Virus record (IMG/VR): IMGVR_UViG_3300012984_000010
DNA length: 64,000 nucleotides
Source: a virus
Taxonomy: Duplodnaviria > Caudoviricetes
Direction: 5' to 3' (one strand)
Below are positions 32,763 through 61,301 of the stretch, in pieces. Numbering within the stretch: position 1 is the stretch's first letter; the number at the start of each line of letters is the position of its first letter. The notes beneath the pieces are model-generated. The model did not search any database and was not told where the DNA came from. It worked only from the letters and a program-made list of their open reading frames with translations. The translations under genes and the position numbers were made by a program.

Positions 32763-32801
32763 CGAGGATAGCTCAATAAGGGTCTCTTGTCACCTACACC
32801 C

Positions 32802-33236
32802 TCAAGTCAGCAGGCGTATGTAAAAAGTCAGAGCCGCCCCTGAGACATTCGTAATGGAGGTCTGGGTGAAAGTCTCATTGTGGACGATATCCACCGTTCC
32901 CGTAGCATCCACCCAGTTGGAACTCACTTTTTTCAACACATACACTGAAGGCGGAAATCCGAATCCGTGATTCAAGACGACCGACGCCCCGTTGTTGATC
33001 AGTTGGGAGTCTTCAAGCTTCAGCTTACCTGCTGCCAAGAAGGCCTTGATGTCTCCCGACAGGACGCTTCGCAACACTTCTGAGGTGTTGGGCAAGTACA
33101 CGCTGTGTCCTGCCCCAAGATAGCGTTCTTCTCCCCTCCGGCCCTCAGTTTGAGAGGCGGGGGTAAACTTCAGATCTCGTAAGTGGAGCGTGCCCTGAGA
33201 GATGTTGGTGACCTTCACATCAGGGCACGGCCACAA
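32802..33236 (-). CDS. Hypothetical beta-rich protein
   Basis: 144 aa ORF in operon with vWA and rtcB. Confidence 0.5.
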   Translation of the reverse strand: MWPCPDVKVTNISQGTLHLRDLKFTPASQTEGRRGEERYLGAGHSVYLPNTSEVLRSVLSGDIKAFLAAGKLKLEDSQLINNGASVVLNHGFGFPPSVYVLKKVSSNWVDATGTVDIVHNETFTQTSITNVSGAALTFYIRLLT

Positions 33237-33245
33237 GTAGAAGGT

Positions 33246-34790
33246 TTACTTCACTGTTGGGGGAATTTGGTCCGGATCCCCCATAGCGATCACTGCGTCA
33301 ACAGGGATCAATTGAGGAGTCTCAGGAATGATGATCGAGGGTGTTTTGGTGATCTCCACCACAGCAGGTACTTGAGACCACAATCGGGCAGCGACGTCCA
33401 AAGGAACAGCCGCAACCGCCACCTCAGGGGCCTCCACGAAGTTCGATACCGTCTGGGTCATCGAGGCATTCCCTAGACTGACATCGCAAAAACTGAGATC
33501 CTGCAACGCCTCAGCATCCATACTGGAGGCTCCGAACGCCCTCGTACCCCCGACCTTCATGCTGCTCAGATAACCACCACTAGTATCGTACAAGCCCTTT
33601 GACGACACCTTGTGCTGGACTGACGCCGCCACCCTAGCAGTGTTGTGATGACCACGATTCTGAACCAAATTTGCCGTATTGGCCATAATCTGGGCCGCCG
33701 CCTCGAACTGCCCCTTCTTGGCTTGTTCCTCGGCCTCCAGCTGAGCCCGCACCACTTGAGCCAAAGCCACAATGGCATCCAACTCCTTGTTGGGCTCCTT
33801 CTGAGCATCCTCCGCCGAGACAAACTGGGCCTTCACCTTGGCCTCAATCGACTTGGTTTCCCTCTGACCTTCTGAGGTAATGACCTGATAGGTGGTCTTG
33901 ACATCGAAGATGTTGACCGCTCTGGGTCCAGCCTTCCCCTGCTTGAGTTTGACATCAAAGACGAAGTGTCTGGTCTCTTCTGCCAAGATGTCAGGAAACT
34001 GGAACTCTGCCTCTCCCAATACGTTCTTGGTAACCACCACATCCGTCACAGCCTTTTCGACGGGATGTCCCGCCAAAGGATTGATCTCAACCAGGATGTT
34101 CTGAGCGTAGGTGCTCAATAGGCCGCCCAGCTCTCGTCCGAAAGCCGTCAAGGCGTCGTCAGGATCCTGCACGTAGGCGTAGTTACCACTTCCTTCTTGG
34201 GCAAAGTTGGTCAAGAAGTCCTGATCGCAGGAACCGTTCACCGTCCCCGTCGACCCATATCCGAAGGCGCTAACGGTGGTGGAGCCTAGGCTGCTTTTCA
34301 GCAATTTGAGGATTTGAGACTTGTCTGTAACCCCCACATTCGGCTCCCCGTCCGTAAACAGGATGATTCGCTTGATGTACTTGGGGCTCAGATCCAACCC
34401 CTCCACCATCTTGAGCGCCTCAAGAAATCCGTCAGTCAGGTTAGTGCTACCCATGGGTCTGAGTTTACTCACCAGGTTCTTGAACTGGGTTTTCACCTCG
34501 GCTGTCACCTGTTGAGGTTTCATCAGTTTGTGGATGCTGCTTTCAAAGCCTATCAGGCCAACAATATCCCCAGGCTGGAGCTGATCGATCAGCTTAAGCA
34601 GACTCTTCTTAGCGTATTCGAGCTTAGCTCCTGACATCGAGCCTGAGAGGTCAATGACCGGCAACACGCAGATAGAGGGCCTCTTGGTCGCCCAATCGGA
34701 TGCAGGGGCAGTGATGGACACCACCAAATGGGTTTGGTTGTCCTTGGAATGATCGTATTTTTGGTTGGTTAGTCGCGCTTGAATTTCCAC
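33246..34790 (-). CDS. vWA-domain protein (YfbK/CLCA-like)
   Basis: MIDAS DLSGSM, GSTN, LFTDGEPN, GSGNYAYV; likely GTG start at 34790. Confidence 0.9.
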   Translation of the reverse strand: MEIQARLTNQKYDHSKDNQTHLVVSITAPASDWATKRPSICVLPVIDLSGSMSGAKLEYAKKSLLKLIDQLQPGDIVGLIGFESSIHKLMKPQQVTAEVKTQFKNLVSKLRPMGSTNLTDGFLEALKMVEGLDLSPKYIKRIILFTDGEPNVGVTDKSQILKLLKSSLGSTTVSAFGYGSTGTVNGSCDQDFLTNFAQEGSGNYAYVQDPDDALTAFGRELGGLLSTYAQNILVEINPLAGHPVEKAVTDVVVTKNVLGEAEFQFPDILAEETRHFVFDVKLKQGKAGPRAVNIFDVKTTYQVITSEGQRETKSIEAKVKAQFVSAEDAQKEPNKELDAIVALAQVVRAQLEAEEQAKKGQFEAAAQIMANTANLVQNRGHHNTARVAASVQHKVSSKGLYDTSGGYLSSMKVGGTRAFGASSMDAEALQDLSFCDVSLGNASMTQTVSNFVEAPEVAVAAVPLDVAARLWSQVPAVVEITKTPSIIIPETPQLIPVDAVIAMGDPDQIPPTVK

Positions 34791-34867
34791 GGGAAATGCT
34801 CCGTTACTGGGATGATACCCAAAATCGAAGATCAGCAGAGCCCGGAAACATTCCAGGGTCAGAAGTT

Positions 34868-34986
34868 CTTCGTAAACAGTCGAGGAATCACCTTTTGATG
34901 TAGGCCTAAGCCTCAAATCGAGGGTATTCCAGAGTCGGTTGCTATCGGCCTTCCCAAACCCGAAGGTGCGGACTGCCTACACGAAG
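34868..34986 (-). ncRNA. Candidate structured RNA in the vWA gene leader
   Basis: CUUCGUGUAGGCAGUC pairs with GACUGUUUACGAAG (14 bp, 2-nt bulge) around internal hairpins. Confidence 0.4.
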
Positions 34987-37064: not shown

Positions 37065-37239
37065 GGAAAGATTGCCGCTAAAGGTCTCATCTGGAGTCGG
37101 AGTAGGGCCCGTCTCTCAAACCTTACCGCAACCATAGAGCTACCTAGGTTCACGCCACCGCTTTCCGTCGGGGACGTGATAGCAGGGCAGAAGGTACCTT
37201 CTGCCTCGTGACTTCATCGAGAGTTCTGAAGTCACTTAG

Positions 37240-37701
37240 TGTAGGTGCGCGGAGTTGAACCGCGGTCCTCGATTTCTACAGAGAGATCTTGTTCATGTGC
37301 GTAGCCTACTAAGCATTCCAACTAGTGGACCCTAAGGAGCCGTAGGCTTCTACCTCAGGGCTTTGACGGAATCTCGTCCGTCAACCAGCCATTCTACAAT
37401 CTCACCACCCAGTGGTTAGGCAATCCTGGTAGGCCAGCCTTATCTCGAATGTCTCGTATATCCAGGCCGTAGCTTAGGACTCGTTGACATGGGAGACTTC
37501 GTTTTGGTTTCACTCCTCGGGTACCAAGACAATCTACCGAGGTAATGGCTACGTGCTCCCGTCAAGGGAGCGGCTACCCTTTCAGGCAGCAGCAGCGAGT
37601 GCGTTGTCGTTCGCAGTTATAACGGCCTGTTTTTAATGGGACAGACTCCCATTGCACAATCGATCTACTCCTTCGTCACCAAGTCGAAACCCGTCACCCA
37701 C
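37240..37701 (-). ncRNA. ssrA: tmRNA, tag peptide (A)ANDNALAAAA*
   Basis: 5' GTGGGTGACGGGTTTCGAC; 3' CGCGG-TTCAACT-CCGCG CACCTAC A; G3.U70 pair; resume context ATAACT GCG; tag ORF 37614-37582. Confidence 0.95.
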
Positions 37702-37985: not shown

Positions 37986-38339
37986 AATACCCTGGAACCC
38001 CCGCATGGGGCTCCAGGTTCTGTAACACTGGTTTTCAACGTGTACCACACACCTCAGAATTATCCAAACTAGCCCATATTGAAAGGGGCAACCTGAGTAT
38101 CGACCCAAGTACCTAGCCTAGTTGTTTGAATCCTTCTGCCCGGCTTCTAACGGGGACTTCTAGAACCAGTTGGGGCGATAGGTTCCCCTACCGTCCTCCA
38201 CCACCTAAACCGACTTTCGTCGGTCCAAGACTTTTGCTGTTGTCAGCTTCATACACCCTAACGGTCACCAGTTGGGGTACCTTAAGGGCGGGATAGATGA
38301 AAAAGTTCATTTGTCCGTGGGCTGACAGGGGTCAATGTG

Positions 38340-38408
38340 TGCACCAGACAGGATTCGAACCTGCTCACCTCGGGTTAGCGAGATGTGGCGCCATTCCACC
38401 ACCAGTAC
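38340..38408 (-). tRNA. Atypical tRNA-like gene (6-nt anticodon loop CTAACC)
   Basis: D arm GTGG/CCAC, T arm GCAGG-TTCGAAT-CCTGT, weak acceptor stem. Confidence 0.45.
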
Positions 38409-39642: not shown

Positions 39643-40548
39643 ATGCGGATTCTTATCGTAGAAGACAGTGCCACCGACCGCCAATTGCTCCGTTACTTGC
39701 TTGAGGACAAATTTATGTCCGAGGCAAAGTTTCGGGAGGCTAGCAATCTTGCCACAGCCGTCAAGTACCTGGATGCGGGCAATATCGACTGCGTTCTGTT
39801 GGACCTTCAATTACCTGATTCCGCTGGGAAAGAAACTTTTGAGAAGCTGATTAGTCGCTTCCCCGATGTGCCGATCATCGTGATGACCAACAACAAGGAC
39901 CGTGACCTGGCGGTCAACATGATCAAGCTGGGGGCAGCCGACTACATCCTCAAGTCCTACACCGACGAGGAGGAGCTTTTTCGTCGAATCGTGTTCGCAA
40001 TCGAGAAACATCGGAGGACCGTTCGCATGCCGATCGACAATGCCTCCAGTATCCACAAGCTGGAACGAGCTCAAGCCAACCTCGCCTCGGCCCACAAGAG
40101 TGGCGAACATGGGGCGATCCGCTCGACAACGATGGAGACCACCACCGCCATTGCGGACCTGTCCAAGAGTCTGTTCACCGAGCTACAAGCGATCTCTGGC
40201 AAGCTGACCCAGCAGGACACACGGGTCGGCCACATGGAGGATATTGTTCGCACCTTGGAACAGGAGCTGCTGAAAGGGCACCCTACCCGTGCCTCAATGC
40301 GTTCTCAGGTGGATCTGATCGATCACCGGCTCACCCAAAACGAGCAAGGACTGAAGTCGGTCAGAGACGGGTTGAAACACGATGACGAGACTCAACGAAT
40401 GAGCGCGGTGTCGTTGCATCAAACCCGCATGACCAACAAGACCAAGCTATTGCTGGGAGTGTTGACCCTAATTGGAGCTATCGCCACAGCAGTGGCTTCC
40501 TACGAGGCCTCCAATGGAGGGAAGGCCGACACAGGGCATCACCCGTGA
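39643..40548 (+). CDS. Response regulator (REC) with coiled coil and C-terminal TM helix
   Basis: ILIVEDS, LLDLQLPD, MT, GAADYILK; hydrophobic LLLGVLTLIGAIATAVA. Confidence 0.88.
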   Translation: MRILIVEDSATDRQLLRYLLEDKFMSEAKFREASNLATAVKYLDAGNIDCVLLDLQLPDSAGKETFEKLISRFPDVPIIVMTNNKDRDLAVNMIKLGAADYILKSYTDEEELFRRIVFAIEKHRRTVRMPIDNASSIHKLERAQANLASAHKSGEHGAIRSTTMETTTAIADLSKSLFTELQAISGKLTQQDTRVGHMEDIVRTLEQELLKGHPTRASMRSQVDLIDHRLTQNEQGLKSVRDGLKHDDETQRMSAVSLHQTRMTNKTKLLLGVLTLIGAIATAVASYEASNGGKADTGHHP

Positions 40549-41612
40549 ATGCGGTGGACCATTTGAAAGCTGCCTTCGACGATTCTTGTGTTCCACAGAT
40601 CGTGATAGGTTTAGACGGGGGGATCCTGACCGCTAATGAACCAGCGTGGGAATTACTGGGAGAAACCAAAGAAGGGTTGCTTCAGAAGCGGCACCACGAA
40701 TTGATATCAGGGGATCCTCTTCCCTTGGAGGAATTGTTACAGAAGTTCGACAGCGACAACTATTTGCAGAACTGGCAACACGAATTTCAATATTTGCGTA
40801 AAGACAACCCAATGGTTTGGGTTCGTGTCAGTATATCTGCAATCCGTCAGAACGGAAAGGCGGCTGCTCTATTGGCCCAACTACAAGATATAACGGATCA
40901 AAAACAGATTGAAGTAGACCTGCATCGAAATAGCGACGACCTGGATCAGTTCGCCTATATCGCAAGTCATGACTTGAGGGAACCTTTGACCGTCATGGCA
41001 GGTTACGCCACCCTTCTGAAGAAGCGTTGCTATGAGTCTTTGGATGAGAAGGGTAAACATTTCCTTGAAGAAGTGATTGACAGTACGGTGCGAATGGAAC
41101 GCAAGATCGACGACCTGTTGGCTTTCTCAAGGGCTGGCCGAACGACTCCAAAAGCCGTCTTCCAGTTGGAAACAGCGATCGAGGAAGCAAGGCGCTCAGT
41201 GGGCCGAAGTATTGAGGAGTCGGGGGCCGTCTTCATCATCCCAGAGGGGTTACCGTTCGTAAGCGGTGACCGCAGCATGATCGCTCAGGTGTTTCAGAAC
41301 CTGTTCTCCAATTCAATCAAGTACAGGAATCCGGATAGCCCCCCAATCATCACAGTAGCAGTCACGCCTCATGACGACATTTTCCTCCGAGTGTCGGTGT
41401 CCGACAACGGTTTGGGGTTTGATATGGAACACAAAGATCGTATCTTCGGAGTGTTCCAGAGGCTCTACACGGAAGAGCAGTACCCAGGAACCGGTATCGG
41501 GCTAGCGATCGTCAAACGAATTGTAGAGCGGCACCGAGGCGCCATCTGGACCACCTCTGAGCCCAATCATGGAGCCACGTTCTTCTTTACCATACCTAGG
41601 GCCGATGCCTGA
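40545..41612 (+). CDS. PAS sensor histidine kinase (Cph1/BphP-type kinase core)
   Basis: PAS-like N-term, FAYIASHDLREPL, QVFQNLFSNSIKY, DNGLGF, GTGIGLAIVK. Confidence 0.95.
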   Translation: MNAVDHLKAAFDDSCVPQIVIGLDGGILTANEPAWELLGETKEGLLQKRHHELISGDPLPLEELLQKFDSDNYLQNWQHEFQYLRKDNPMVWVRVSISAIRQNGKAAALLAQLQDITDQKQIEVDLHRNSDDLDQFAYIASHDLREPLTVMAGYATLLKKRCYESLDEKGKHFLEEVIDSTVRMERKIDDLLAFSRAGRTTPKAVFQLETAIEEARRSVGRSIEESGAVFIIPEGLPFVSGDRSMIAQVFQNLFSNSIKYRNPDSPPIITVAVTPHDDIFLRVSVSDNGLGFDMEHKDRIFGVFQRLYTEEQYPGTGIGLAIVKRIVERHRGAIWTTSEPNHGATFFFTIPRADA

Positions 41613-46652: not shown

Positions 46653-46714
46653 CGTATCGTCTACACCAAGAGGAAAAGGATTAAGGGCACCCGAGGCGGA
46701 AAGCAGATTGTTGA

Positions 46715-46787
46715 TGCAAGATACAGGAATCGAACCTGTTACTTTCGGTTTTTAGGACCAACGCTCTACCAAGTGAGCTAATTTTGC
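46715..46787 (-). tRNA. Atypical tRNA, anticodon TAA on a short-variable-arm body
   Basis: Canonical D arm AGCTCACTTGGTAGAGC and T arm; loop CCTAAAA with C33. Confidence 0.6.
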
Positions 46788-46814
46788 GTGTATGCTTTCC
46801 AGGGTGGGTACCCT

Positions 46815-46942
46815 TGGCGCCGCTTCCAGGAGTCGAACCTGGCGAAGCTTGTAAGCTCTACTTTGGAACCCCTTTCAGGGTCGAGATAGAGAGCGGGGGA
46901 TTGGTTTCCTTAACAGGGAAATTGGACCCACGTCCAAGCGGC
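46815..46942 (-). ncRNA. tRNA-mimic RNA A (Asn GTT-like arm, ~60-nt structured variable domain)
   Basis: GCCGCTT/AAGCGGC acceptor + G + CCA, GGAC/GTCC D-like arm, TTTCC-CTGTTAA-GGAAA, T arm CCAGG-TTCGACT-CCTGG. Confidence 0.7.
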
Positions 46943-47091
46943 ATATTCAGTTACAATCGAGTGCGTCAACCAGTTTTGCTGTTTTTCTTGATAGGAAAAT
47001 GTCCTGCCACTAGACGATATTCCCCGAAGGGAGTAACGGGAATCGAACCCGTGCATTGCGTGTATGGTTGATGCTGGTGACTGTAACCTAG

Positions 47092-47220
47092 TGGGGGATC
47101 TGGGAATCGAACCCAGGCTTGTATGACCTGCCTAGTGTCCCATTGCTGGGACGAGGAGCAGAGCGGTGTTTTTTCCAAAACCAAAATTTGGATGAGGGAA
47201 CCTACCCTCTGTGATCCCCC
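47092..47220 (-). ncRNA. tRNA-mimic RNA B (paralogue of A)
   Basis: GGGGGAT/ATCCCCC acceptor, GAGGG/CCCTC, TCCAAA/TTTGGA, expanded variable domain, T arm CTGGG-TTCGATT-CCCAG. Confidence 0.68.
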
Positions 47221-47277: not shown

Positions 47278-47853
47278 TCAGACGGCGAACACTCCCTGTG
47301 GGTTGATTTGGTAACCCGTCTGCTTCCCATTGCTGAGAAACAGTCGTGCCGAGTGGGCCAAGAAGCTGGCCGTGATGCTGATGAAGGGAAGGTGTTCTCC
47401 ATCTTCACACGTGGCCGCCCCACCAGCCCCCTCATCATCGATTTCGAAGCCGGCGTCCCAAACGACTCGGCCGAAGCCGCCATTGGCCGCCAGGGCCCCA
47501 TGCAGGCATGGAGTTTTGGTCTTGCGAGCGAAGGCTTGCACGATCCGCCTCGCCTGACCGTTGTCCAGGCAATCGATGATCAGGTCCGATCGGCCCAGCA
47601 ACTGAGTATCGTTTTCCGATGTCAGCTTGTGGGGGATCGTCTCAATCTTGGTGCCAAAGAGGAAATTCATCGTCTGTTGGATCGATTGGGTCTTACTCTT
47701 GCCCACATGCGTCTTCGAGTGGAACTGCGAACTGACGTTCTTTTGCTCCACCCGATCGTAGTCGATGATGCGAAGCGTCGCCTCGACGTTTCGAAGCAAC
47801 ATGACAACGTGGGAACCCAGGGCTCCCACACCCACGATGGTGACGATCTTCAT
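47278..47853 (-). CDS. ThiF/E1-like ubiquitin-activating (adenylation) enzyme
   Basis: IVGVGALGSH, IIDYDRVEQKN...Q, GK.K, DLIIDCLDN, single Cys in TCEDG. Confidence 0.9.
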   Translation of the reverse strand: MKIVTIVGVGALGSHVVMLLRNVEATLRIIDYDRVEQKNVSSQFHSKTHVGKSKTQSIQQTMNFLFGTKIETIPHKLTSENDTQLLGRSDLIIDCLDNGQARRIVQAFARKTKTPCLHGALAANGGFGRVVWDAGFEIDDEGAGGAATCEDGEHLPFISITASFLAHSARLFLSNGKQTGYQINPQGVFAV

Positions 47854-47879
47854 GTTGTCTCTATACGGTTTTAGTGCGG

Positions 47880-48080
47880 TCAGGTTAAGGGTGTTTGAGC
47901 ACAAGCGTAGTACTGTTCTTCAGCTTCTCTCAACTTAACCTTGAGCCATCGGTCTTTACGGATCCATGTCAGATCCTGGGAAATCTCTCCCCTGGATTCA
48001 TGAAAAGACACCTGACGACGGAGACGTGCAATGCGTTGATCAAGCAACACTAATGCACGCTCCTGTTCATCAAACGTCAA
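47880..48080 (-). CDS. Small helical protein
   Basis: 66 aa ORF between the Ubl and E1 genes. Confidence 0.4.
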   Translation of the reverse strand: MTFDEQERALVLLDQRIARLRRQVSFHESRGEISQDLTWIRKDRWLKVKLREAEEQYYACAQTPLT

Positions 48081-48081
48081 T

Positions 48082-48339
48082 TCAGGCTCCGAACGGAACC
48101 TTTGGACGCAGCATGAGACGGTTGTACGGGATGTCGTCAGTGGCCGGATAGCGGTCCACTACGAAATCGGTGAAGTTGGCGGTCGGATCAGCCGTGATAC
48201 CTGGGATGCCAGAATGCACTGCCTCAGTGGCCCACGTCTGAATGGACGCAAGACCTGCGTCATAGTTGACCGGATCCGGCAACTCGCCCAGCTGGGCATT
48301 GTACGAGATGATCAGTTTCGCTTGGTTAGTTTCCATCAT
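48082..48339 (-). CDS. Putative ubiquitin-like (beta-grasp) protein ending ..LRPKVPFGA
   Basis: 85 aa; beta-beta-alpha-beta-beta-like pattern; near-terminal Gly; between the JAB and E1 genes. Confidence 0.65.
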   Translation of the reverse strand: MMETNQAKLIISYNAQLGELPDPVNYDAGLASIQTWATEAVHSGIPGITADPTANFTDFVVDRYPATDDIPYNRLMLRPKVPFGA

Positions 48340-48351
48340 AATCTCCGTTAT

Positions 48352-48780
48352 TTAGAGTCCTTGCTGACTCTCGATGGAGACAGCAATCAAGTTTGAAAGT
48401 TCGCGTAGCTTGATGAGCCAATCGGGAATCTCCCAATCTTCCTCACCATCTTCGAATTGACCGCCATGAGCGTAGTCGTACAAGCCTGGGCCTTTCCAGG
48501 TAAAGAACGCCACATGGTCTGATGAGGTGATGGGCCACACCAATCGGCGACCCAACCCTCTCTCAACGGCCGAAAAAGTAGTCAGATCTTCGTGAGAAGG
48601 GGCGACTGGTCCTGATCCAGGATGACTGTGGGCAAAACCATATAGGTTTTGATGGTTGTTCAGCAACACCTCCCACAAGTCTCTGCTGTCAGGCAGATAA
48701 CCAACCGACCGTCCAGGAGGTAGGTGCCAGTAAATAACACTCTCATCCTTCGCCAACACCACTCCTGTTTCAATCGACAT
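48352..48780 (-). CDS. JAB/MPN+ metallopeptidase (deubiquitinase-like)
   Basis: N-terminal E (SIETG), HSHP......PSHED motif. Confidence 0.88.
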   Translation of the reverse strand: MSIETGVVLAKDESVIYWHLPPGRSVGYLPDSRDLWEVLLNNHQNLYGFAHSHPGSGPVAPSHEDLTTFSAVERGLGRRLVWPITSSDHVAFFTWKGPGLYDYAHGGQFEDGEEDWEIPDWLIKLRELSNLIAVSIESQQGL

Positions 48781-49729
48781 GTCTAAAAACCACCAGTTTC
48801 CTTTCACGCTGTGCTTCCCGAATTACACCAGGGAGAGTCTCCAGCGTGAGCCAAGTATCTCCTTTGGTGCCTTCTTCAAAGGCTTCGTCATCGTAATGGG
48901 CCGTCAAACAGATACCGGCGTCAATGATCTGCAGTGTATGTTGGTGGCACACACATTCAAAACGCTGACCATCTAGTCTGAATCGAATCACCATCTCGTT
49001 CCGGTGAGGTGCTTGACGAGTGTCAAGAAGCTGGGCGCCGCCTACCGACAGGGCTGCCCGAGCGGCCTGTTGGAAGTCTACTCGTGCCATCGCCCTACGG
49101 CCGGCACTATCGCCAAGTTGCTCAACAAGACGGCGGCGGTTTTCCTCGCGCTGCCGTGCCTCTTCAGCCTCCTGTCTGACACGTTCGGCTTCTACCCGCC
49201 TTCTTTCCGCTTCAACCCTCTGCAGGGTCTCCATCCGGAAAGCGGCATCTAGGGCCGGTGTGACGCCAAGAATGTGGTCCAAGGAGTCTTTCTCATCCAG
49301 GAAGGCATCAAGAACCTGTTGTTCAGGTCCCAGCGGCATTTCCTGGTTCATGAAAATCAGTGGTCCGTCATCAAAGACTCGGCCCACTGCAATCCGTGAA
49401 AATCGATCGACACCTGCTTCGATCAAGAACACTTCTGGGTGTTGTGCCGCGATATCCCGTAGGTTGATCGCCCTGACCAGATTGTCCGCAACGAATCTAT
49501 TTCCCACAAGATAACCGCATTCCTTGTGGAGCAGCATCTCAGGGTCTGGGTCAGACTCAGACCTGAGGGTCAATTTCTGACCCTTAGCGTTGAAAACATA
49601 CCAACCATGTTCCTGGGGAGTCTTGCCTTCGAGGCGGTATTCAGTGTAATCCGCGCCCAAAAGGGTGCGGCCACCTGTCCAAGGGAATACCTTGGATTGT
49701 TCTACCTCAAGCAAGTCTCTCCAGGACAT
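48770..49729 (-). CDS. Protein with a candidate E2/UBC-like C-terminal domain
   Basis: IIDAGICL (cf. E2 G.ICL catalytic Cys) followed by W.TLETLPGVIREA; central coiled coil. Confidence 0.5.
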   Translation of the reverse strand: MSWRDLLEVEQSKVFPWTGGRTLLGADYTEYRLEGKTPQEHGWYVFNAKGQKLTLRSESDPDPEMLLHKECGYLVGNRFVADNLVRAINLRDIAAQHPEVFLIEAGVDRFSRIAVGRVFDDGPLIFMNQEMPLGPEQQVLDAFLDEKDSLDHILGVTPALDAAFRMETLQRVEAERRRVEAERVRQEAEEARQREENRRRLVEQLGDSAGRRAMARVDFQQAARAALSVGGAQLLDTRQAPHRNEMVIRFRLDGQRFECVCHQHTLQIIDAGICLTAHYDDEAFEEGTKGDTWLTLETLPGVIREAQRERKLVVFRHVD

Positions 49730-49782: not shown

Positions 49783-51639
49783 TCAGGCTGCCCAAGCAGG
49801 CTTCTGTAGCAGGTCGGTCGCCAAGATGGTGTCCACAAGGGACAGACGAGGCTTGACCTGCGCCCTGGTTGCTGCGGCCGTTACCGGCGTAGCAGCGATC
49901 AGGTTACGAAGCACGCGAGGCACAGCGTACGGGTCGGTGAACGTCTTCTCATCGATCTCGAAGCACGGGATATTCAAACGAACAGCCGTTTCCTTGACCG
50001 CAGTACCTTGACCGTATTGACGGGAAGGAGTGGGGATGAGACCGAATGCGACCGGATTGAGGTCAGATTCCTGAACAGCTCGGCTGAATTGGGGGGCACC
50101 CTCATCACCAACGAAGATGAATAGGACATCCCTACCTGCAACAGGCCTGTACTTCTTGAGAGCAAGTACACCAGCACCGTAATCCGTACCACCACCTGCC
50201 TTGATACCTGAGAAGGCGTTGGTGACACCTGCTGCTGAAGCGTGAGGGATTCTTACTTCACGTCCCGCTGTGTTGAACACCGAAACGTGAAGATTATCCA
50301 GCGGGAAAGCTGGAACCATCTGAGAGATATATCGCTTAGCCTTCTCGATCGCCTCATCCATCGAACCAGAGATGTCGACAATGACGTAGACTTCCAGGTC
50401 CTTGGCCACTTCCTCGACAGCCTTTTGGACTGCCGTATCCGCCGCCTCCTGCAAGGCTTCCTTGACTTCCTTGGACTTGACCCGCAAAGCGACGTTAGCC
50501 GCCCGCTGGTCTTCCGCCTTCCTGAGGGCCGCCTGCCAACGCCCCTGAATGTCAGGAACCTTGAGCAAACCGTGCGATTCAAGGGTCTCGCTGTAGATGA
50601 TTAGGTCCTTGTCGGAAAGGGATCCCGATTCGATCGAGGCCGCCAATACAGCTCGGGTGAGACCAATCTGATCTGGCAACATACCGACGATTCGCTTGAA
50701 ATCGGGCTTTTGGGCCACGATCCGTTCGCAAATCTGTTCCTCAGTGAGACCTGCCCACGACTCAGCTGCCTTGACGGCCTTACCGATGGCGATCGTACGG
50801 TGACCGTCCTTCGCCTGGTCCTGCTTCCAACGAAGCAATTGGAAGAACTTCTCCGTTGTCGGCTTGTACCCGATCGCTCGTGCCAAACGAATGAGCGAGG
50901 TCCGGAAACCCTTCTTGATCAGACCCTTGAGCAGTTGCTGGTTGACCTCACGGTAACGCAACCACTTCTCGATCACTCGGGGGAGACGACCCAAGAAGGC
51001 GTTGCGCTGGCTCTGGCCGAAACCCAACTCACGGTTGACGGCCGCGACCTCGTCCAACTCCAAGAAATCCAGAAGGCGCAAGATCATCTTGACGTCCAGG
51101 AACTTCTTCCCGTCGCAAAGTACCATCGCCTCACCGATGTCTCGGAAGTCCTCATCGTAGAACGCCACCTTACCAGCATCCAAGACCGGATCGCCCTTAC
51201 GGGTCTGAACCAACATGAATGCCGCCAAAGCTACCTTCAAGTCACGGTGATCTTCACCGTAGGCGTAGCTAGCCCAACGAGCTGCAAACTCGTTGTCGAG
51301 CCGCCATACTTCGGCGATCTGGCGGTACATCCACTCAGCCACCTCAGGGAATAGGCCTGGCTTCATGTAGCGACCGACAATCGTACGACCGTCCAACACC
51401 TTACCGTCGGCACTCAAGGTGCCAAGACGAATCAGGTTCGTCTTCTTGCCCGCCTTTTCCTTGCGGTAGACGACCTTCTGGCCGGCCTCTTCCTTGTAGG
51501 TAACTGGAGACCACTTCACCTTGGTGACGGAAGTAGGGTCCGGCTGGACGATTCCTGGCCTATTGTGTACAGCATGATCGGAATAGGCCAAAAGCGTGTT
51601 GATGATGCGCTCTGCAGGGCCCAGGTTTTCATTTGCCAT
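49783..51639 (-). CDS. Helical (TROVE/Ro60-like) domain plus C-terminal vWA protein
   Basis: About 400 aa helical/basic region, then MIDAS VDISGSM, GGTD, FVGDEG. Confidence 0.75.
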   Translation of the reverse strand: MANENLGPAERIINTLLAYSDHAVHNRPGIVQPDPTSVTKVKWSPVTYKEEAGQKVVYRKEKAGKKTNLIRLGTLSADGKVLDGRTIVGRYMKPGLFPEVAEWMYRQIAEVWRLDNEFAARWASYAYGEDHRDLKVALAAFMLVQTRKGDPVLDAGKVAFYDEDFRDIGEAMVLCDGKKFLDVKMILRLLDFLELDEVAAVNRELGFGQSQRNAFLGRLPRVIEKWLRYREVNQQLLKGLIKKGFRTSLIRLARAIGYKPTTEKFFQLLRWKQDQAKDGHRTIAIGKAVKAAESWAGLTEEQICERIVAQKPDFKRIVGMLPDQIGLTRAVLAASIESGSLSDKDLIIYSETLESHGLLKVPDIQGRWQAALRKAEDQRAANVALRVKSKEVKEALQEAADTAVQKAVEEVAKDLEVYVIVDISGSMDEAIEKAKRYISQMVPAFPLDNLHVSVFNTAGREVRIPHASAAGVTNAFSGIKAGGGTDYGAGVLALKKYRPVAGRDVLFIFVGDEGAPQFSRAVQESDLNPVAFGLIPTPSRQYGQGTAVKETAVRLNIPCFEIDEKTFTDPYAVPRVLRNLIAATPVTAAATRAQVKPRLSLVDTILATDLLQKPAWAA

Positions 51640-53489: not shown

Positions 53490-53648
53490 ATAGGTGTCCG
53501 AGGAGCATAGCCGGCTCCCCGGACGGGTTTGTGAAACTGCATAGGGCCCATCACGGCATTTAAGATCACCGATTAGCTCTAAAGCCCGTACGGCTTGCCA
53601 TTAGTCGACCCCCCAGCTCTGCTGATTAACCTGTGTTGATCAACACAG

Positions 53649-53794
53649 CTGGGGAGGCGGGATTCGAACCCACATGTACGGAGAATTGCCGATGACCGTT
53701 TGAAAGATGGGACGCAGTATCGTAACAAGCTTGTACCCAAACCTCAGCTTTACGGATGCATGGTGTGTCTCTTGCCAATTTGGACTACCTCCCA
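53649..53794 (-). ncRNA. tRNA-like RNA D with ~95-nt insert between the D and T arms
   Basis: TGGGAGG-TAGTCCAAATTGGCAAGAGAC 5' end; GTGGG-TTCGAAT-CCCGC CTCCCCA 3' end. Confidence 0.5.
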
Positions 53795-53825
53795 GTATTG
53801 CTAGCTAACCTTAGCTAGTTAGCAG

Positions 53826-53874
53826 TGGCTGGGAGGGTAGGAATCGAACCTACACAGGGCTTTCGCCCACACCT
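53826..53874 (-). pseudogene. Orphan tRNA 3' half (variable arm, T arm, acceptor strand, CCA)
   Basis: AGGTG-T-GGGCGAAAGCCC-TGT-GTAGG-TTCGATT-CCTAC-CCTCCCA-G-CCA. Confidence 0.55.
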
Positions 53875-53919
53875 AAGCACATTTCAAAATGAGTCTCAGA
53901 TTCAGCTTGGGGGTTCCTT

Positions 53920-58186: not shown

Positions 58187-58218
58187 ATAGAGCGGGAGTG
58201 TTTCCCGCTCTATTTTTA
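58187..58218. terminator. Intrinsic terminator between convergent genes
   Basis: ATAGAGCGGGA-GTGTT-TCCCGCTCTAT-TTTT. Confidence 0.8.
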
Positions 58219-58834
58219 TAGAGCCAACAGCAACCGATCTAAACCGATTGCCCAACCAACACCTTCAGCATACCGACCGCCTCCGGCGATCTGCTTCTGA
58301 GCGCCAAGTTTTGGGCAAGAGGCTTCGAAGCCGTCTTCTGTGTAGTACCCTAACCCACGCTTCACGTTTGAATCAAAAACGTAGGTAACACCCAACCTGT
58401 CTAAGCAACTACGGAGCAGGTCTTCTACTTCTAGGCGATCAGATGATCGATCCCCATTCAACAATTCTACCCCTACCTGGGTGAATTCTCGATATCGGCC
58501 CGCCTGTGGACGTTCGTACCGATAACACCTAGAAACGTAGAACACGCGCATAGGCCCACGCTGAGACTTGCTCCATTCGTTGTTCCACATCTCTTGGATA
58601 AGAGCCGTCACCTCAGGGATGAGGCATATGGGACGTGCCTTCTTGTCAGGGAAGCAATACATCTGCTGGAGGATTTCTTCTCCAGCTTTCGCTATGAAGG
58701 TATCCTGTCCCCAGATGACTGGGACGATCACTTCACTGAATTGAGCGTCCGTGAAGCAACCTCCGCAAATCCTCCGTTACACGGGAGAAACGGGCGGCAT
58801 CTTCACCTACAATCAATCGTGTTCCACGTAACAT
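58216..58834 (-). CDS. Minimal HisRS-like class II catalytic core, split by a +1 frameshift
   Basis: Frame 1 (58834-58733) MLRGTRL..; frame 2 FSEVIVP, CLIPEVTA, YRYERPQAGRYREFTQ.GVE, RGLGYYT, GGGRY, GWAIGLDRL. Confidence 0.8.
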
Positions 58835-61008: not shown

Positions 61009-61020
61009 ATTTTGAAGGCG

Positions 61021-61148
61021 TTCGAGAAAAGAGAGCGGTATGTCTGTTAGGACGGTCTATTGAACCGGTGCGTCTGCCATTCCGCCACCCCTTCATAAAG
61101 TGAAGGGGGCAGGATTCGAACCTGCAAAAGCTTGTGAGCTCTCTCGAA
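61021..61148 (-). ncRNA. Y-RNA/YrlA-like circularly permuted tRNA mimic
   Basis: Order: T arm, then CCCCTTCA-loop-TGAAGGGG closed acceptor, then D arm GCG-GAATGGCAGA-CGC; termini pair (TTCGAGA-GAGC / GCTCTC..TCTCGAA). Confidence 0.8.
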
Positions 61149-61162
61149 GTGAATGCCTTCAG

Positions 61163-61261
61163 TGGACGTAACCGGATTCGAACCGGCGTTTAGGGCTTTC
61201 GGCCCTTGTTCTACCTTCTCTCATTGGCTGCGCAACCGCCGAGAAATTGAACTACACGCCC
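61163..61261 (-). tRNA. tRNA-Phe(GAA)-like with ~30-nt hairpin in the D loop
   Basis: GGGCGTG/TACGTCC, GTTC/GAAC D stem around an insert, loop CCGAAAG, normal T arm. Confidence 0.55.
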
Positions 61262-61301
61262 AATTGATTCAATGAACGGATCGTGATTGGAGAAGTTAAG
61301 G

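What the first reader, a model, noticed from the sequence alone, without database searches (positions are those of the whole stretch)
61021..61148. Circularly permuted tRNA mimic with YrlA (bacterial Y RNA) architecture
Seen on the minus strand, in order: T arm GCAGG-TTCGAAT-CCTGC, an 8-bp acceptor-like stem closed by a CTTTA loop, a D arm GCG-GAATGGCAGA-CGC, and a small hairpin. The 5' and 3' ends pair (GAGAGC/GCTCTC), flanked by unpaired ACAAGC and ATACCGC. Known: YrlA RNAs have this permuted tRNA-like domain, bind Ro60/Rsr (TROVE+vWA), and are linked to rtcB operons. Inference: this is the Y RNA partner of the helical+vWA protein about 10 kb away. It also supports the TROVE-like reading of that protein.
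Basis: partly seen in the sequence, partly recalled or inferred. Interest (0 to 1): 0.72.

Follow-up and report, generated by a model that had tools for sequence, protein, structure and literature searches.

The report
Permuted tRNA-shaped Y-like RNA, huge phage
A huge soil phage encodes a small RNA that is a complete tRNA-Leu shape with its gene order rotated and its two ends zipped into a conserved stem. It belongs to a widespread RNA family that travels with a divergent Ro60-like protein gene, so it is most likely a new form of the Y RNAs that partner Ro60.

Summary
The element is slightly longer than stated (61014-61160), because a second, outer 10-bp closing helix was missed.

It is not an Rfam YrlA member: 15.8 bits against a gathering score of 69. 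It belongs to a family of about 49 elements that I found in huge-phage and Myxococcota-MAG contigs. Their order is closing two-helix stem, conserved YCACAAGC motif, T arm, acceptor stem closed by a spacer, D arm, then an intact anticodon-type hairpin.

Covariation is strong: 97.6% of cells pair against 69% in shuffles. Each element's own 5' and 3' flanks pair at -24 kcal/mol against -10 for mismatched flanks.

Unlike YrlA, the closing stem leaves from the variable-arm position, the anticodon arm is kept, and 35% of members encode N73-CCA.

The 618-aa protein is plausibly Ro60-like. Its N-terminal domain has the three Ro60 structures as its only hits with Z of 8 or more among 48,161 chains, and it has a C-terminal vWA domain. 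It heads a conserved operon with JAB and ThiF genes.

Family RNAs usually lie 2-5 kb downstream of that operon, even where no tRNAs are nearby. A sibling copy sits at 46949-47087. Binding is not tested.

Earlier notes of this scan describe the same system on other DNA and elsewhere in this window.

The parts
61151..61160 (-). Outer closing helix, 5' strand (GAAGGCAUUC)
   Evidence: Pairs 9 of 10 with 61014-61023. In the family, own flanks pair at -24 against -10 kcal/mol for cross-pairs.
61145..61150 (-). Internal loop, 5' side (ACUUCG). Its CG runs into GAGAG of the inner helix, giving UUCGAGAG, a degenerate CGAA-like element.
   Evidence: The family shows a loose C(G/A)N0-2GA at this place.
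61138..61144 (-). Inner closing helix, 5' strand (AGAGAGC)
   Evidence: 7 bp with 61030-61036. Relatives have different complementary sequences here.
61126..61137 (-). Conserved motif UCACAAGC plus UUUU linker. The last U is position 48 of the Levitt pair.
   Evidence: C..ACA.GC is invariant in 25 of 25 aligned members. N15:N48 is compatible in 41 of 49.
61109..61125 (-). T arm GCAGG-UUCGAAU-CCUGC
   Evidence: 100% paired; 4 of 5 pairs co-vary.
61088..61108 (-). Acceptor stem in permuted order: 3' strand CCCCUUC, A73, spacer CUUUAU, 5' strand GAAGGGG. No CCA is encoded.
   Evidence: All 7 pairs co-vary in the family. Coordinates.
61070..61087 (-). U8-G9 and a tRNA-Leu-type D arm GCG-GAAUGGCAGA-CGC
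   Evidence: 27 of 28 blast hits of the 5' half are tRNA-Leu. The helix is conserved.
61052..61069 (-). A26 and the anticodon-type hairpin (C)CGGU-UCAAUAG-ACCG(U). The loop has 7 nt but C at position 33.
   Evidence: 5 of 5 pairs co-vary in the family. R37 in 31 of 31, U33 in 16 of 31.
61037..61051 (-). Unpaired linker in the variable region (CCUAACAGACAUACC). Many relatives have a small hairpin here.
61030..61036 (-). Inner closing helix, 3' strand (GCUCUCU)
61014..61029 (-). Internal loop 3' side UUUCUC (family motif ..CACUC) and outer helix 3' strand GAACGCCUUC
   Evidence: UCG is invariant in 25 of 25..
46949..47087 (-). Sibling class-1 RNA. Its acceptor-like stem is closed by UUCG with no CCA. 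It lies 190 nt after ThiF and 2.7 kb downstream of the Ro-like gene.
   Evidence: R1 67 bits, E 2e-16. Sequence. Position statistics.
49783..51639 (-). Proposed protein partner: a 618-aa divergent TROVE-like helical domain plus a C-terminal vWA domain with DxSxS, and an extra beta domain at residues 29-92
47278..49729 (-). Rest of the conserved operon: orf319 (48770-49729), JAB (48352-48807), orf85 (48082-48339), ThiF/E1-like (47278-47904)
   Evidence: Pfam and NCBIfam. The block is conserved in 55-57 of 61 loci.

Best explanation
Window 61014-61160 (minus strand) encodes a roughly 147-nt non-coding RNA. It is a complete tRNA-Leu-derived cloverleaf with its gene order rotated. The acceptor stem is closed by a short spacer. 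The 5' and 3' ends lie where the long variable arm of a class II tRNA would be, and they pair into a conserved two-helix 'handle': an outer helix, an internal loop with conserved bases, and an inner helix followed by the YCACAAGC motif.

It is one member of a family carried by huge phages that encode a divergent Ro60-like (TROVE-like plus vWA) protein.

Most likely mechanism, by analogy with Rsr-YrlA: the handle is the docking site for the Ro60-like ring, and the L-shaped tRNA-like body is displayed as a bait or adaptor for a tRNA-binding factor. That factor could be a nuclease, a modification or repair enzyme, or a host tRNA-targeting defence protein. On this reading the RNA is a Y RNA of a new wiring.

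Shown here: the structure, its conservation and covariation, the tRNA-Leu ancestry, and the genomic linkage to the Ro-like operon. Inferred: the Ro60 homology of the protein (from predicted structure), binding, and any effector.
For: Structure:
- RNAalifold on an unfitted MAFFT alignment recovers the T arm, permuted acceptor, D arm and anticodon arm, with 17 of 20 pairs compensatory.
- On 49 CM hits, 97.6% of cells pair against 69.4% in shuffles. There are 283 double changes against 73, reached by 0 of 500 shuffles. Slid registers give 38-54%.
- Handle: own-flank duplex energy is -23.95 against -10.42 kcal/mol for cross-pairs, and the own flank ranks first in 22 of 25.
- tRNA core: Levitt 15:48 is compatible in 41 of 49 with A:U to G:C covariation; U8 in 39 of 49; A14 in 42 of 49.
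- The 5' half is tRNA-Leu-like in 27 of 28 hits.

Protein:
- The N-terminal domain searched alone against 48,161 PDB chains gives only three hits with Z of 8 or more, all Ro60: 2nvo at 9.5, 9l5y at 8.9 and 1yvp at 8.2. Each spans the TROVE ring. The next hit is 6.6.
- The full model gives Foldseek E 2.5e-8 to 1e-5 against Ro60 over more than 500 columns.
- The C-terminal vWA domain has Z 14 and an invariant D422-x-S424-x-S426.

Linkage:
- 30 of 50 family RNAs lie 2.3-5.1 kb downstream of the gene on the same strand.
- Five near-complete genomes with the gene all have the RNA, mostly within 22 kb.
- Two complete huge-phage genomes without the gene have none (with a positive control).
- MAG contigs L065 and L082 have the RNA 2.2-2.6 kb downstream although they hold no tRNA in 22 kb.

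Precedent: phage Ro60 proteins bind phage-encoded Y-like RNAs (PMC12135203), and YrlA is a permuted tRNA mimic encoded near Rsr on the same strand (PMC4201824).

Decoding need: all tRNA-Leu isoacceptors are already present as ordinary genes in the window, so this RNA is not needed for decoding.
Against: - No binding or expression data exist.
- Pfam TROVE does not hit the protein, nor do PDB sequence or profile searches.
- Foldseek with the N-terminal domain alone is not significant: Ro60 at E 0.06-0.18.
- The VIA matches have rmsd 7-8 A, and Z below about 13 can be generic for helical repeats.
- The Rfam YrlA score is far below threshold, and the canonical GNCGAA motif is absent.
- This copy is 9.4 kb from the gene, inside a tRNA array.
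- Family members encode N73-CCA as often as real tRNAs (35% against 40%) and keep R37. That suggests the acceptor end is opened and used, which a pure scaffold would not need.
- The protein sits in an operon with JAB and ThiF genes, whose role in a Ro60-type particle is unexplained.
- The co-occurrence sample is small and phylogenetically non-independent.
Confidence: 0.6

Rival explanations
1. It is a functional circularly permuted tRNA gene. RNase P cuts 5' of G1 in the spacer, and the 3' side is trimmed to A73 with CCA added. The result is either a two-piece tRNA held together by the handle, like two-piece tmRNA, or a normal class II tRNA with a long variable arm if the phage RtcB joins the handle ends. 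The product would be charged and used in translation.
For: - It is a complete cloverleaf with a 7-bp acceptor stem, A73 and a tRNA-Leu-type D arm.
- The family encodes N73-CCA in 18 of 52 against about 1 expected, similar to ordinary tRNAs at 349 of 879.
- R37 is present in 31 of 31, and about half the members have canonical YU-NNN-RA loops.
- The break sits in the variable arm, the position a ribosome tolerates best (inference).
- RtcB is encoded at 31350-32762.
- M. smegmatis YrlA with a 7-bp stem is cut by RNase P and gains CCA (PMC4201824).
- There are weak hits to permuted tmRNA models over the same T arm and acceptor.
Against: - The window copy has C33 rather than U33, the loop UCAAUAG, and no CCA.
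- In the family, U33 occurs in only 16 of 31 loops, and 12 of 45 loops have 8-9 nt.
- Discriminator bases often do not fit the apparent anticodon (by eye).
- A subgroup has the acceptor closed by UUCG or UCGG tetraloops with no N73.
- All Leu isoacceptors are already present.
- There is no bulge-helix-bulge or ribozyme motif at the ends.
- Conserved handle bases are not needed for a mere variable arm.
- The RNA follows the Ro-like operon even where there are no tRNAs.
Confidence: 0.15
2. It is a tRNA decoy that works without the Ro-like protein. The tRNA-Leu look-alike has an altered anticodon-loop 5' side (position 32/33). It soaks up or resists host tRNA-targeting defences such as anticodon nucleases or tRNA-modifying toxins, and the handle only stabilises the RNA ends.
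For: - Changes concentrate at position 33 or appear as a one-base insertion before it, while anticodon-like triplets, R37 and A38 are kept.
- These phages invest heavily in tRNA supply and repair: 31 tRNAs, a tmRNA and RtcB.
- Jumbo phages are known to counter RNase effectors with tRNAs and ligases (PMC7824862).
Against: - This does not explain the invariant handle motifs, or the tight same-strand linkage to the Ro-like operon in loci without tRNAs.
- It does not explain the absence of the RNA from the two complete genomes that lack the gene.
- No nuclease target is identified.
Confidence: 0.12
3. The RNA is a substrate or cofactor of the ThiF/JAB part of the operon rather than a Ro60-type scaffold. 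One example would be a tRNA-like acceptor that the E1-like adenylyltransferase modifies, as TcdA or MoeB-type enzymes act on tRNA. In that case the vWA protein has a non-RNA role.
For: - The operon Ro-like/orf319/JAB/orf85/ThiF is conserved in 55-57 of 61 loci, with the RNA often right after ThiF.
- The ThiF protein weakly matches the tRNA ct6A37 synthase TcdA and MoeB families.
- R37 is invariant in the RNA loops.
Against: - ThiF family assignments are all far below their curated cut-offs.
- orf85 ends in PFGA, not GG, and has no family hit.
- The protein's best structural matches are specifically Ro60.
- No tRNA-modifying catalytic partner is recognised.
Confidence: 0.08
4. It is a non-functional relic: a rearranged tRNA-Leu fragment pair in a recombining tRNA array.
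For: tRNA arrays in these phages contain many odd tRNA-like pieces, for example 61163-61262 and 53609-53881.
Against: 49 relatives in different phages keep all six helices through compensatory changes, along with the invariant motifs. The orthologue in L002 is conserved in structure but not in sequence.
Confidence: 0.03

Closest known systems
YrlA (Rfam RF02553), the tRNA-like Y RNA bound by bacterial and mycobacteriophage Rsr/Ro60 (Chen et al. 2014, PMC4201824; Wang et al. 2018, 10.1101/312249)
   Same: - Circularly permuted tRNA mimic in the order T arm, closed acceptor stem, D arm.
- The 5' and 3' ends form a long stem with an internal loop.
- tRNA elbow and Levitt-pair nucleotides are conserved.
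- It is encoded on the same strand as, and near, a TROVE+vWA gene.
- Some members (M. smegmatis) have a 7-bp acceptor stem that RNase P cuts, followed by CCA addition.
   Different: - It fails the covariance model (15.8 against 69 bits).
- The closing stem leaves from the variable-arm position instead of replacing the anticodon stem.
- A full anticodon-type hairpin is kept.
- The handle has its own invariant motifs (C..ACA.GC and UCG) instead of GNCGAA.
- 35% of members encode N73-CCA.
- There are several copies per genome, with different tRNA-like bodies.
- The partner protein is too divergent for Pfam TROVE and sits in an operon with JAB and ThiF.
Thermus phage phiLo phiRo60 with Yrl1/Yrl2 (PMC12135203; PDB 9KOP, 9L5Y)
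   Same: It is a phage-encoded Ro60 with phage-encoded partner RNAs that have a 5'-3' stem, an internal bulge and a second stem. It is one of the three best structural matches of the window protein's N-terminal domain (Z 8.9).
   Different: The phiLo RNAs were picked by a CGAA motif and lie upstream of the gene. They are not described as complete tRNA cloverleafs. phiRo60 is recognisable by sequence, and no JAB/ThiF operon is reported.
Circularly permuted tRNA genes of Cyanidioschyzon merolae and some green algae and archaea (from my own knowledge; reviewed in PMC3400036 and PMC4238349, which surfaced)
   Same: The 3' half of the tRNA is encoded upstream of the 5' half, with a short spacer joining the acceptor strands and CCA or a discriminator at the junction.
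   Different: Those genes are broken in the anticodon, D or T loops. Their ends form a bulge-helix-bulge motif for the splicing endonuclease, and they mature through a circular intermediate into ordinary tRNAs. Here the break is in the variable arm, the ends form a 10-bp, loop, 7-bp handle with conserved bases, and many anticodon loops are non-canonical.
Two-piece tmRNA from permuted ssrA genes (Rfam RF04321, RF01850)
   Same: The gene order is permuted: T arm, 3' acceptor strand, intervening segment, 5' acceptor strand. The mature RNA is held together by base pairing after the spacer is removed.
   Different: There are only weak local hits (13-15 bits against 47 and 84). There is no mRNA-like tag region or pseudoknots. 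This phage has an ordinary one-piece tmRNA at 37237-37701.

Membership tests
YrlA (Rfam RF02553) | Scores at or above the family's gathering threshold (69 bits) with the Rfam covariance model | tested here: not met
   15.8 bits, E 2.8. Only model positions 29-81 of 114 aligned. No hit at gathering threshold.
YrlA (Rfam RF02553) | tRNA-like module in the order T arm, closed acceptor-like stem-loop, D arm | tested here: met
YrlA (Rfam RF02553) | The 5'/3' closing stem continues from the anticodon-stem position and the RNA lacks an anticodon loop (10.1101/312249) | tested here: not met
   An intact 5-bp, 7-nt hairpin follows A26 (61052-61068). The closing stem joins between that hairpin and the T arm, in the variable region.
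YrlA (Rfam RF02553) | Conserved GNCGAAN0-1G / CGAA Ro60-binding motif in the 5' strand of the stem (PMC4201824; PMC12135203) | tested here: not met
   The window has UUCGAGAG. The family shows only a loose C(G/A)N0-2GA, and the invariant bases are C..ACA.GC and UCG.
YrlA (Rfam RF02553) | Encoded within about 4 kb of the Ro60 gene on the same strand | tested here: inconclusive
   This copy is on the same strand but 9.4 kb upstream. The sibling at 46949-47087 is 2.7 kb downstream, and 30 of 50 family members lie 2.3-5.1 kb downstream.
YrlA (Rfam RF02553) | tRNA tertiary-core nucleotides: U8, A14, G18G19, T loop, pyrimidine 48 and the Levitt pair | tested here: met
   The window has U8, A14, A15:U48, GG in the D loop and UUCGAAU.
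YrlA (Rfam RF02553) | Bound by Rsr/Ro60 in vivo or in vitro | not testable with these tools
   There is no RNA-protein binding tool, and no RNA-seq run holds the sequence.
Ro60 / TROVE+vWA proteins (for the 618-aa partner) | Sequence match to Pfam TROVE (PF05731) or to solved Ro60 chains | tested here: not met
   Pfam gives only VWA_2 at 28.3 bits. phmmer and hmmsearch against PDB find no Ro60.
Ro60 / TROVE+vWA proteins (for the 618-aa partner) | N-terminal helical-repeat ring of the TROVE fold | tested here: inconclusive
   VIA wide search: the three Ro60 representatives are the top three and the only chains with Z of 8 or more (9.5, 8.9, 8.2; 234-283 residues aligned; rmsd 7-8 A), with the next hit at 6.6. 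Foldseek on the domain alone gives E 0.06-0.18. The models have pTM 0.45-0.60.
Ro60 / TROVE+vWA proteins (for the 618-aa partner) | C-terminal vWA domain with a MIDAS DxSxS motif following the ring | tested here: met
   Residues 413-584 match vWA at Z 14. D422, S424 and S426 are invariant in 31 homologues.
Functional (permuted) tRNA gene | Complete cloverleaf with a 7-bp acceptor stem and a discriminator | tested here: met
Functional (permuted) tRNA gene | 7-nt anticodon loop with U33 and a purine at 37 | tested here: not met
   The window loop UCAAUAG has C33 and A37. In the family, U33 occurs in 16 of 31 and R37 in 31 of 31, and 12 of 45 loops have 8-9 nt.
Functional (permuted) tRNA gene | Bulge-helix-bulge motif, or another known cleavage and ligation signal, at the permuted ends | tested here: not met
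   The ends form a 10-bp helix, a 6x6 internal loop and a 7-bp helix. No ribozyme family appears in the permissive Rfam scan.
Functional (permuted) tRNA gene | Mature RNA with a free CCA end, aminoacylated | not testable with these tools
   The window copy encodes A73 but no CCA. 18 of 52 family members encode NCCA.

The most novel reading that the evidence does not exclude
These RNAs are not passive scaffolds. RNase P and 3' trimming open the acceptor spacer, giving two-piece, CCA-ended and possibly chargeable tRNA bodies. These stay tethered through the conserved handle to a Ro60-like ring. That ring is encoded in one operon with an E1-like adenylyltransferase, a JAB peptidase and two orphan proteins. 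The result would be a phage-built particle that couples tRNA mimicry, or tRNA surveillance and repair, to ubiquitin-like or adenylation chemistry. It would offer different tRNA 'heads' (Leu-, Tyr- and other types with altered position 33) against different host tRNA-targeting defences.
Probability: 0.2. Interest if true: 0.88.

Novelty: new variant of a known kind. Interest (0 to 1): 0.66.

Why it matters
What the tRNA-like half of bacterial Y RNAs is for remains an open question, as does what Ro60 does in phages.

This family gives a natural series in which one conserved handle carries many different, complete tRNA bodies. A third of them have an encoded CCA end. All of them sit beside a highly conserved Ro60-like gene (about 60% identity across more than 1,400 homologues) that current annotation calls only 'vWA domain protein'.

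If the pairing is confirmed:
- Ro60/Y RNA systems would extend to a large clade of 350-600-kb soil and sediment phages.
- The tRNA mimic would be shown to be a whole tRNA wired through its variable arm.
- The particle would be linked to JAB and E1-like enzymes.

On the practical side, these elements are invisible to ARAGORN, Rfam tRNA and Rfam YrlA. Phage tRNA arrays are therefore under-annotated, and junctions between adjacent tRNAs can be confused with them.

Tried and rejected
- No whole genome is held for the window.
- blastn of the locus against the phage collection found no match.
- Sequencing runs: no RNA holder is listed, only soil-metagenome DNA contigs.
- PDB sequence searches with the protein or its family profile gave only weak vWA hits and no Ro60.
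- pdb_via on the full-length model was swamped by vWA domains.
- Foldseek with the N-terminal domain alone gave nothing at E of 0.001 or better.
- PHROGs and NCBIfam gave nothing useful for the 618-aa protein, orf319, JAB or orf85. Pfam at E up to 10 gave nothing for orf85 or orf319.
- ARAGORN in intron mode on in-silico un-permuted constructs called 'tRNAs' with 120-144-nt introns and arbitrary anticodons. I judged these unreliable.
- Column-wise pairing of the handle on the MAFFT alignment failed because helix lengths vary. I replaced it with the own-versus-cross duplex test.
- Tandem tRNAs with similar acceptor stems mimicking permutation: rejected. The T arm and 5' half are not part of any ARAGORN tRNA. 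There is no matching 5' half upstream or 3' half downstream. The acceptor pairs co-vary in the permuted register. Such dimer junctions do appear as low-scoring partial hits (model positions 36-116).
- Permuted group I intron-exon, hammerhead or twister flanks: the flanks are only about 35 nt, and no ribozyme family appears in the permissive Rfam scan.
- K-turn in the handle: no tandem G.A pairs (by eye).
- L002's contig lacks a detectable Ro-like gene, but it is only 32% complete, so this is uninformative.
- Promoter and terminator scan: nothing convincing next to the element.
- The ubiquitin-like identity of orf85 claimed in earlier notes was not verified. Its C-terminus is PFGA.
Full report
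**Context.** The window is part of a huge-phage-like contig. The protein's own contig is 475,623 bp, from soil metagenomes. All on the minus strand, it carries 31 ARAGORN tRNAs and a tmRNA. It also carries replication genes, a chaperonin, RtcB (31350-32762) and a second vWA protein. No whole genome is held, and the locus has no match in the GenBank phage collection.

**The observation.** On the minus strand the sequence reads, in order:
- GAAGGCAUUC (outer helix)
- ACUUCG
- AGAGAGC (inner helix)
- UCACAAGC, then UUUU
- GCAGG-UUCGAAU-CCUGC (T arm)
- CCCCUUC, A, CUUUAU, GAAGGGG (acceptor stem, 3' strand first)
- UG
- GCG-GAAUGGCAGA-CGC (D arm)
- A
- CCGGU-UCAAUAG-ACCGU (hairpin)
- CCUAACAGACAUACC
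- GCUCUCU (inner helix)
- UUUCUC
- GAACGCCUUC (outer helix)

The single-sequence fold has z = -4.3. Neither ARAGORN nor Rfam tRNA calls it.

**Test against YrlA.** A permissive cmscan gives YrlA 15.8 bits against a gathering score of 69. It aligns only model positions 29-81, which are the T arm, closed acceptor and D arm. Equally weak hits to permuted tmRNA models fall on the same T arm and acceptor. The element shares the central module of YrlA but is not a member by the family's own model.

**A family emerges.**
- An exact 25-mer search in IMG/VR found a different 341-kb phage (L001). There the same acceptor, D and T arms stand in normal tRNA order around a long insert.
- Loci around homologues of the neighbouring aminotransferase and of the 618-aa protein (61 huge-phage loci) were scanned with my own pattern: T arm, 7-nt 3' acceptor strand, spacer, complementary 5' strand, D arm.
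- This gave 44 hits outside ARAGORN tRNAs. All 51 raw hits were on the tRNA-array strand and none on the opposite strand.
- Reading their flanks showed a common plan:
  - an outer helix that differs in sequence between phages
  - an internal loop
  - a short inner helix
  - a conserved YCACAAGCA just before the T arm
  - the closed acceptor, often with N73-CCA and a spacer of 4-50 nt
  - a D arm and A26
  - an intact 5-bp hairpin with a loop of usually 7 nt
  - often a mini-hairpin, and then a 3' strand ending in ..CACUCGG

**Statistics on the structure.**
- A plain MAFFT alignment of 25 members has C..ACA.GC, the T loop and UCG invariant.
- RNAalifold on it recovers the four cloverleaf helices, with 17 of 20 pairs compensatory.
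- A covariance model (R1) finds 49 unique full-length hits at 57-128 bits, all on the sense strand. These stand clearly apart from a tail of partial tRNA-dimer junctions.
- The window element scores 109 bits.
- On these 49 hits, 97.6% of cells pair against 69.4% in shuffles. There are 283 double-sided changes against 73, reached by 0 of 500 shuffles. Slid registers fall to 38-54%.
- All seven pairs of the permuted acceptor helix co-vary.
- The handle was tested separately. Each 5' flank pairs with its own 3' flank at -23.95 kcal/mol on average, against -10.42 with other members' flanks. The own flank ranks first in 22 of 25.
- The tRNA core is kept: U8 in 39 of 49, A14 in 42 of 49, and the Levitt pair compatible in 41 of 49, switching between A15:U48 and G15:C48.

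**What kind of tRNA body.**
- The window element's 5' half matches tRNA-Leu in 27 of 28 hits, up to 96% over 26 nt, and it has A73.
- tRNA-Leu is a class II tRNA. The handle leaves exactly where its long variable arm would be.
- The loop UCAAUAG has C33.
- Across the family, R37 is present in 31 of 31 seven-nucleotide loops but U33 in only 16 of 31. Twelve of 45 loops have 8-9 nt.
- Several loops look like tRNA-Tyr loops with one base inserted before U33.
- N73-CCA is encoded in 18 of 52, close to the 40% of ordinary tRNAs in the same loci.
- A subgroup has the stem closed by UUCG or UCGG tetraloops with no N73.
- All Leu isoacceptors already exist as ordinary genes in the window.

**The protein.**
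- The 618-aa protein matches only VWA_2 in Pfam. It has more than 1,400 homologues at about 60% identity, many on contigs of 300-480 kb.
- The full AlphaFold model has pLDDT 79 and pTM 0.45. It hits TROVE/Ro60 structures over more than 500 columns at E 2.5e-8 to 1e-5, but with poor TM-scores.
- The N-terminal 412 residues modelled alone have pLDDT 81 and pTM 0.60. Searched against 48,161 representative chains without Foldseek pre-filtering, they give only three chains with Z of 8 or more: D. radiodurans Rsr (9.5), Thermus phage phiLo Ro60 (8.9) and Xenopus Ro60 (8.2). Each spans the ring. The next hit is 6.6.
- Foldseek on this domain alone is not significant.
- The C-terminal vWA domain is clear (Z 14), with an invariant DxSxS.
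- I read this as a divergent Ro60-like protein with an added beta domain (residues 29-92), at roughly three-in-four odds.

**Linkage.**
- The gene heads a block with orf319, JAB, orf85 and ThiF, conserved in 55-57 of 61 loci.
- Thirty of 50 family RNAs lie 2.3-5.1 kb downstream of the gene on the same strand, just after ThiF. One of them is a second window copy at 46949-47087 (67 bits).
- In five near-complete genomes of 437-619 kb, nearly all strong hits lie within 22 kb of the gene.
- Two complete huge-phage genomes that lack the gene also lack the RNA (the positive control worked).
- In Myxococcota-labelled MAG contigs the RNA again sits 2.1-4 kb downstream. This includes two loci with no tRNA in 22 kb, which separates the RNA from the tRNA arrays.
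- These samples are small and related by descent.
- RtcB is in the window, but 28 kb from the element, and rarely lies near the operon.

**Comparison with the literature.**
- YrlA is a permuted tRNA mimic whose closing, Ro60-binding stem continues from the anticodon stem. It lacks an anticodon loop and a free CCA, carries GNCGAA, and lies within about 4 kb of rsr on the same strand. M. smegmatis YrlA is cut by RNase P and gains CCA (PMC4201824; 10.1101/312249).
- Phage Ro60 proteins with Y-like RNAs are known in mycobacteriophages, CcrColossus, Bacillus phage G and Thermus phiLo (PMC4201824; PMC12135203).
- TROVE is noted in a small subset of jumbo phages (PMC7824862).
- My searches found no paper describing this wiring, its handle motifs or the JAB/ThiF operon.
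- Earlier notes of this scan describe the same system in other genomes and at 46815-47220 of this window. I treated them as leads and re-derived the points I use.

**Verdict.** The element is best described as a Y-RNA-like, circularly permuted, complete tRNA-Leu mimic with a new wiring (handle at the variable arm). It is probably the partner of a divergent Ro60-like protein (confidence 0.6). The main rival is a processed two-piece or ligated tRNA. Binding, expression and processing remain untested.

Noticed in passing
window 61163-61262 (-): Directly upstream of the finding lies a normal-order tRNA-like gene. It has acceptor GGGCGUG/UACGUCC and T arm GCCGG-UUCGAAU-CCGGU. A roughly 35-nt structured insert sits inside the D-arm region, and the 'anticodon' hairpin GGGC-CGAAA-GCCC has a 5-nt loop. 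ARAGORN does not call it, and Rfam tRNA gives 15.8 bits. It folds as a cloverleaf (z -2.35).
   Followed up: partly
window 46690-46830 (-): A normal-order 'tRNA-Leu(UAA)' (ARAGORN 46715-46787) has a short variable loop and C33. It is flanked by the same handle: outer GGGUACCC/GGGUGCCC, inner GGAAAGCA/UGCUUUCC, and the motifs CAUACACGCA and CCUCGG. The handle can therefore clasp a tRNA body through its acceptor end as well.
   Followed up: partly
window 53609-53881 (-); L002:15716-15959: There are two tandem permuted tRNA-like elements of a second class. They have U1-A72, G73-CCA, 34-35-nt spacer hairpins and different flanks. Their acceptor pairs co-vary between the window and L002 (CUCCCCA/UGGGGGG against CUUCCCA/UGGGAAG). 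R1 scores them only 27-33 bits.
   Followed up: partly
L001:2384-2530 (+): A 341-kb phage lacks both the Ro-like gene and the class-1 RNA. It has a normal-order Leu-like tRNA sharing 27 identical bases with the window element, but with a structured insert of about 85-95 nt in the anticodon/variable region. This may be an intron or another tRNA chimera.
   Followed up: partly
window 31350-34916 (-): An RtcB RNA ligase (470 aa, Pfam E 1e-91) lies next to a second, unrelated vWA protein (556 aa, with the vWA domain at the N-terminus).
   Followed up: no
window 47278-49729 (-): The conserved operon partners of the Ro-like gene are an orphan 319-aa protein, a JAB peptidase, an orphan 85-aa protein ending in PFGA, and a short ThiF/E1-like adenylyltransferase that also matches PRTRC-ThiF, MoeB and TcdA models below their cut-offs.
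   Followed up: partly
L025:15761-15909, L032:16422-16573, L044:14941-15092: These family members have 8-nt loops, CGUGUAAA or CAUGUAAA. They equal the tRNA-Tyr anticodon loop CUGUAAA with one base inserted before U33. The window element's orthologue in L002 has CGGUAAA (G33).
   Followed up: no
L065-L087 (genome contigs): 23 MAG contigs carry the operon at the same 54-61% identity as the phages. Almost all are labelled Myxococcota (Kofleriaceae, Polyangiaceae, Sandaracinaceae), and they reach 544 kb. They may be huge phages binned with their hosts, which would hint at a myxobacterial host range.
   Followed up: no
window 39643-41612 (+): A response regulator and a PAS-histidine kinase pair are encoded on the opposite strand, in the middle of the phage tRNA region.
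   Followed up: no
window 58216-58731 (-): A 171-aa fragment-sized class II aminoacyl-tRNA synthetase core (HisRS-like) lies within the tRNA array.
   Followed up: no
window 38339-38408 (-): ARAGORN calls a tRNA with an undetermined two-base anticodon ('aa'). Rfam tRNA gives 33 bits. It is another non-canonical tRNA.
   Followed up: no
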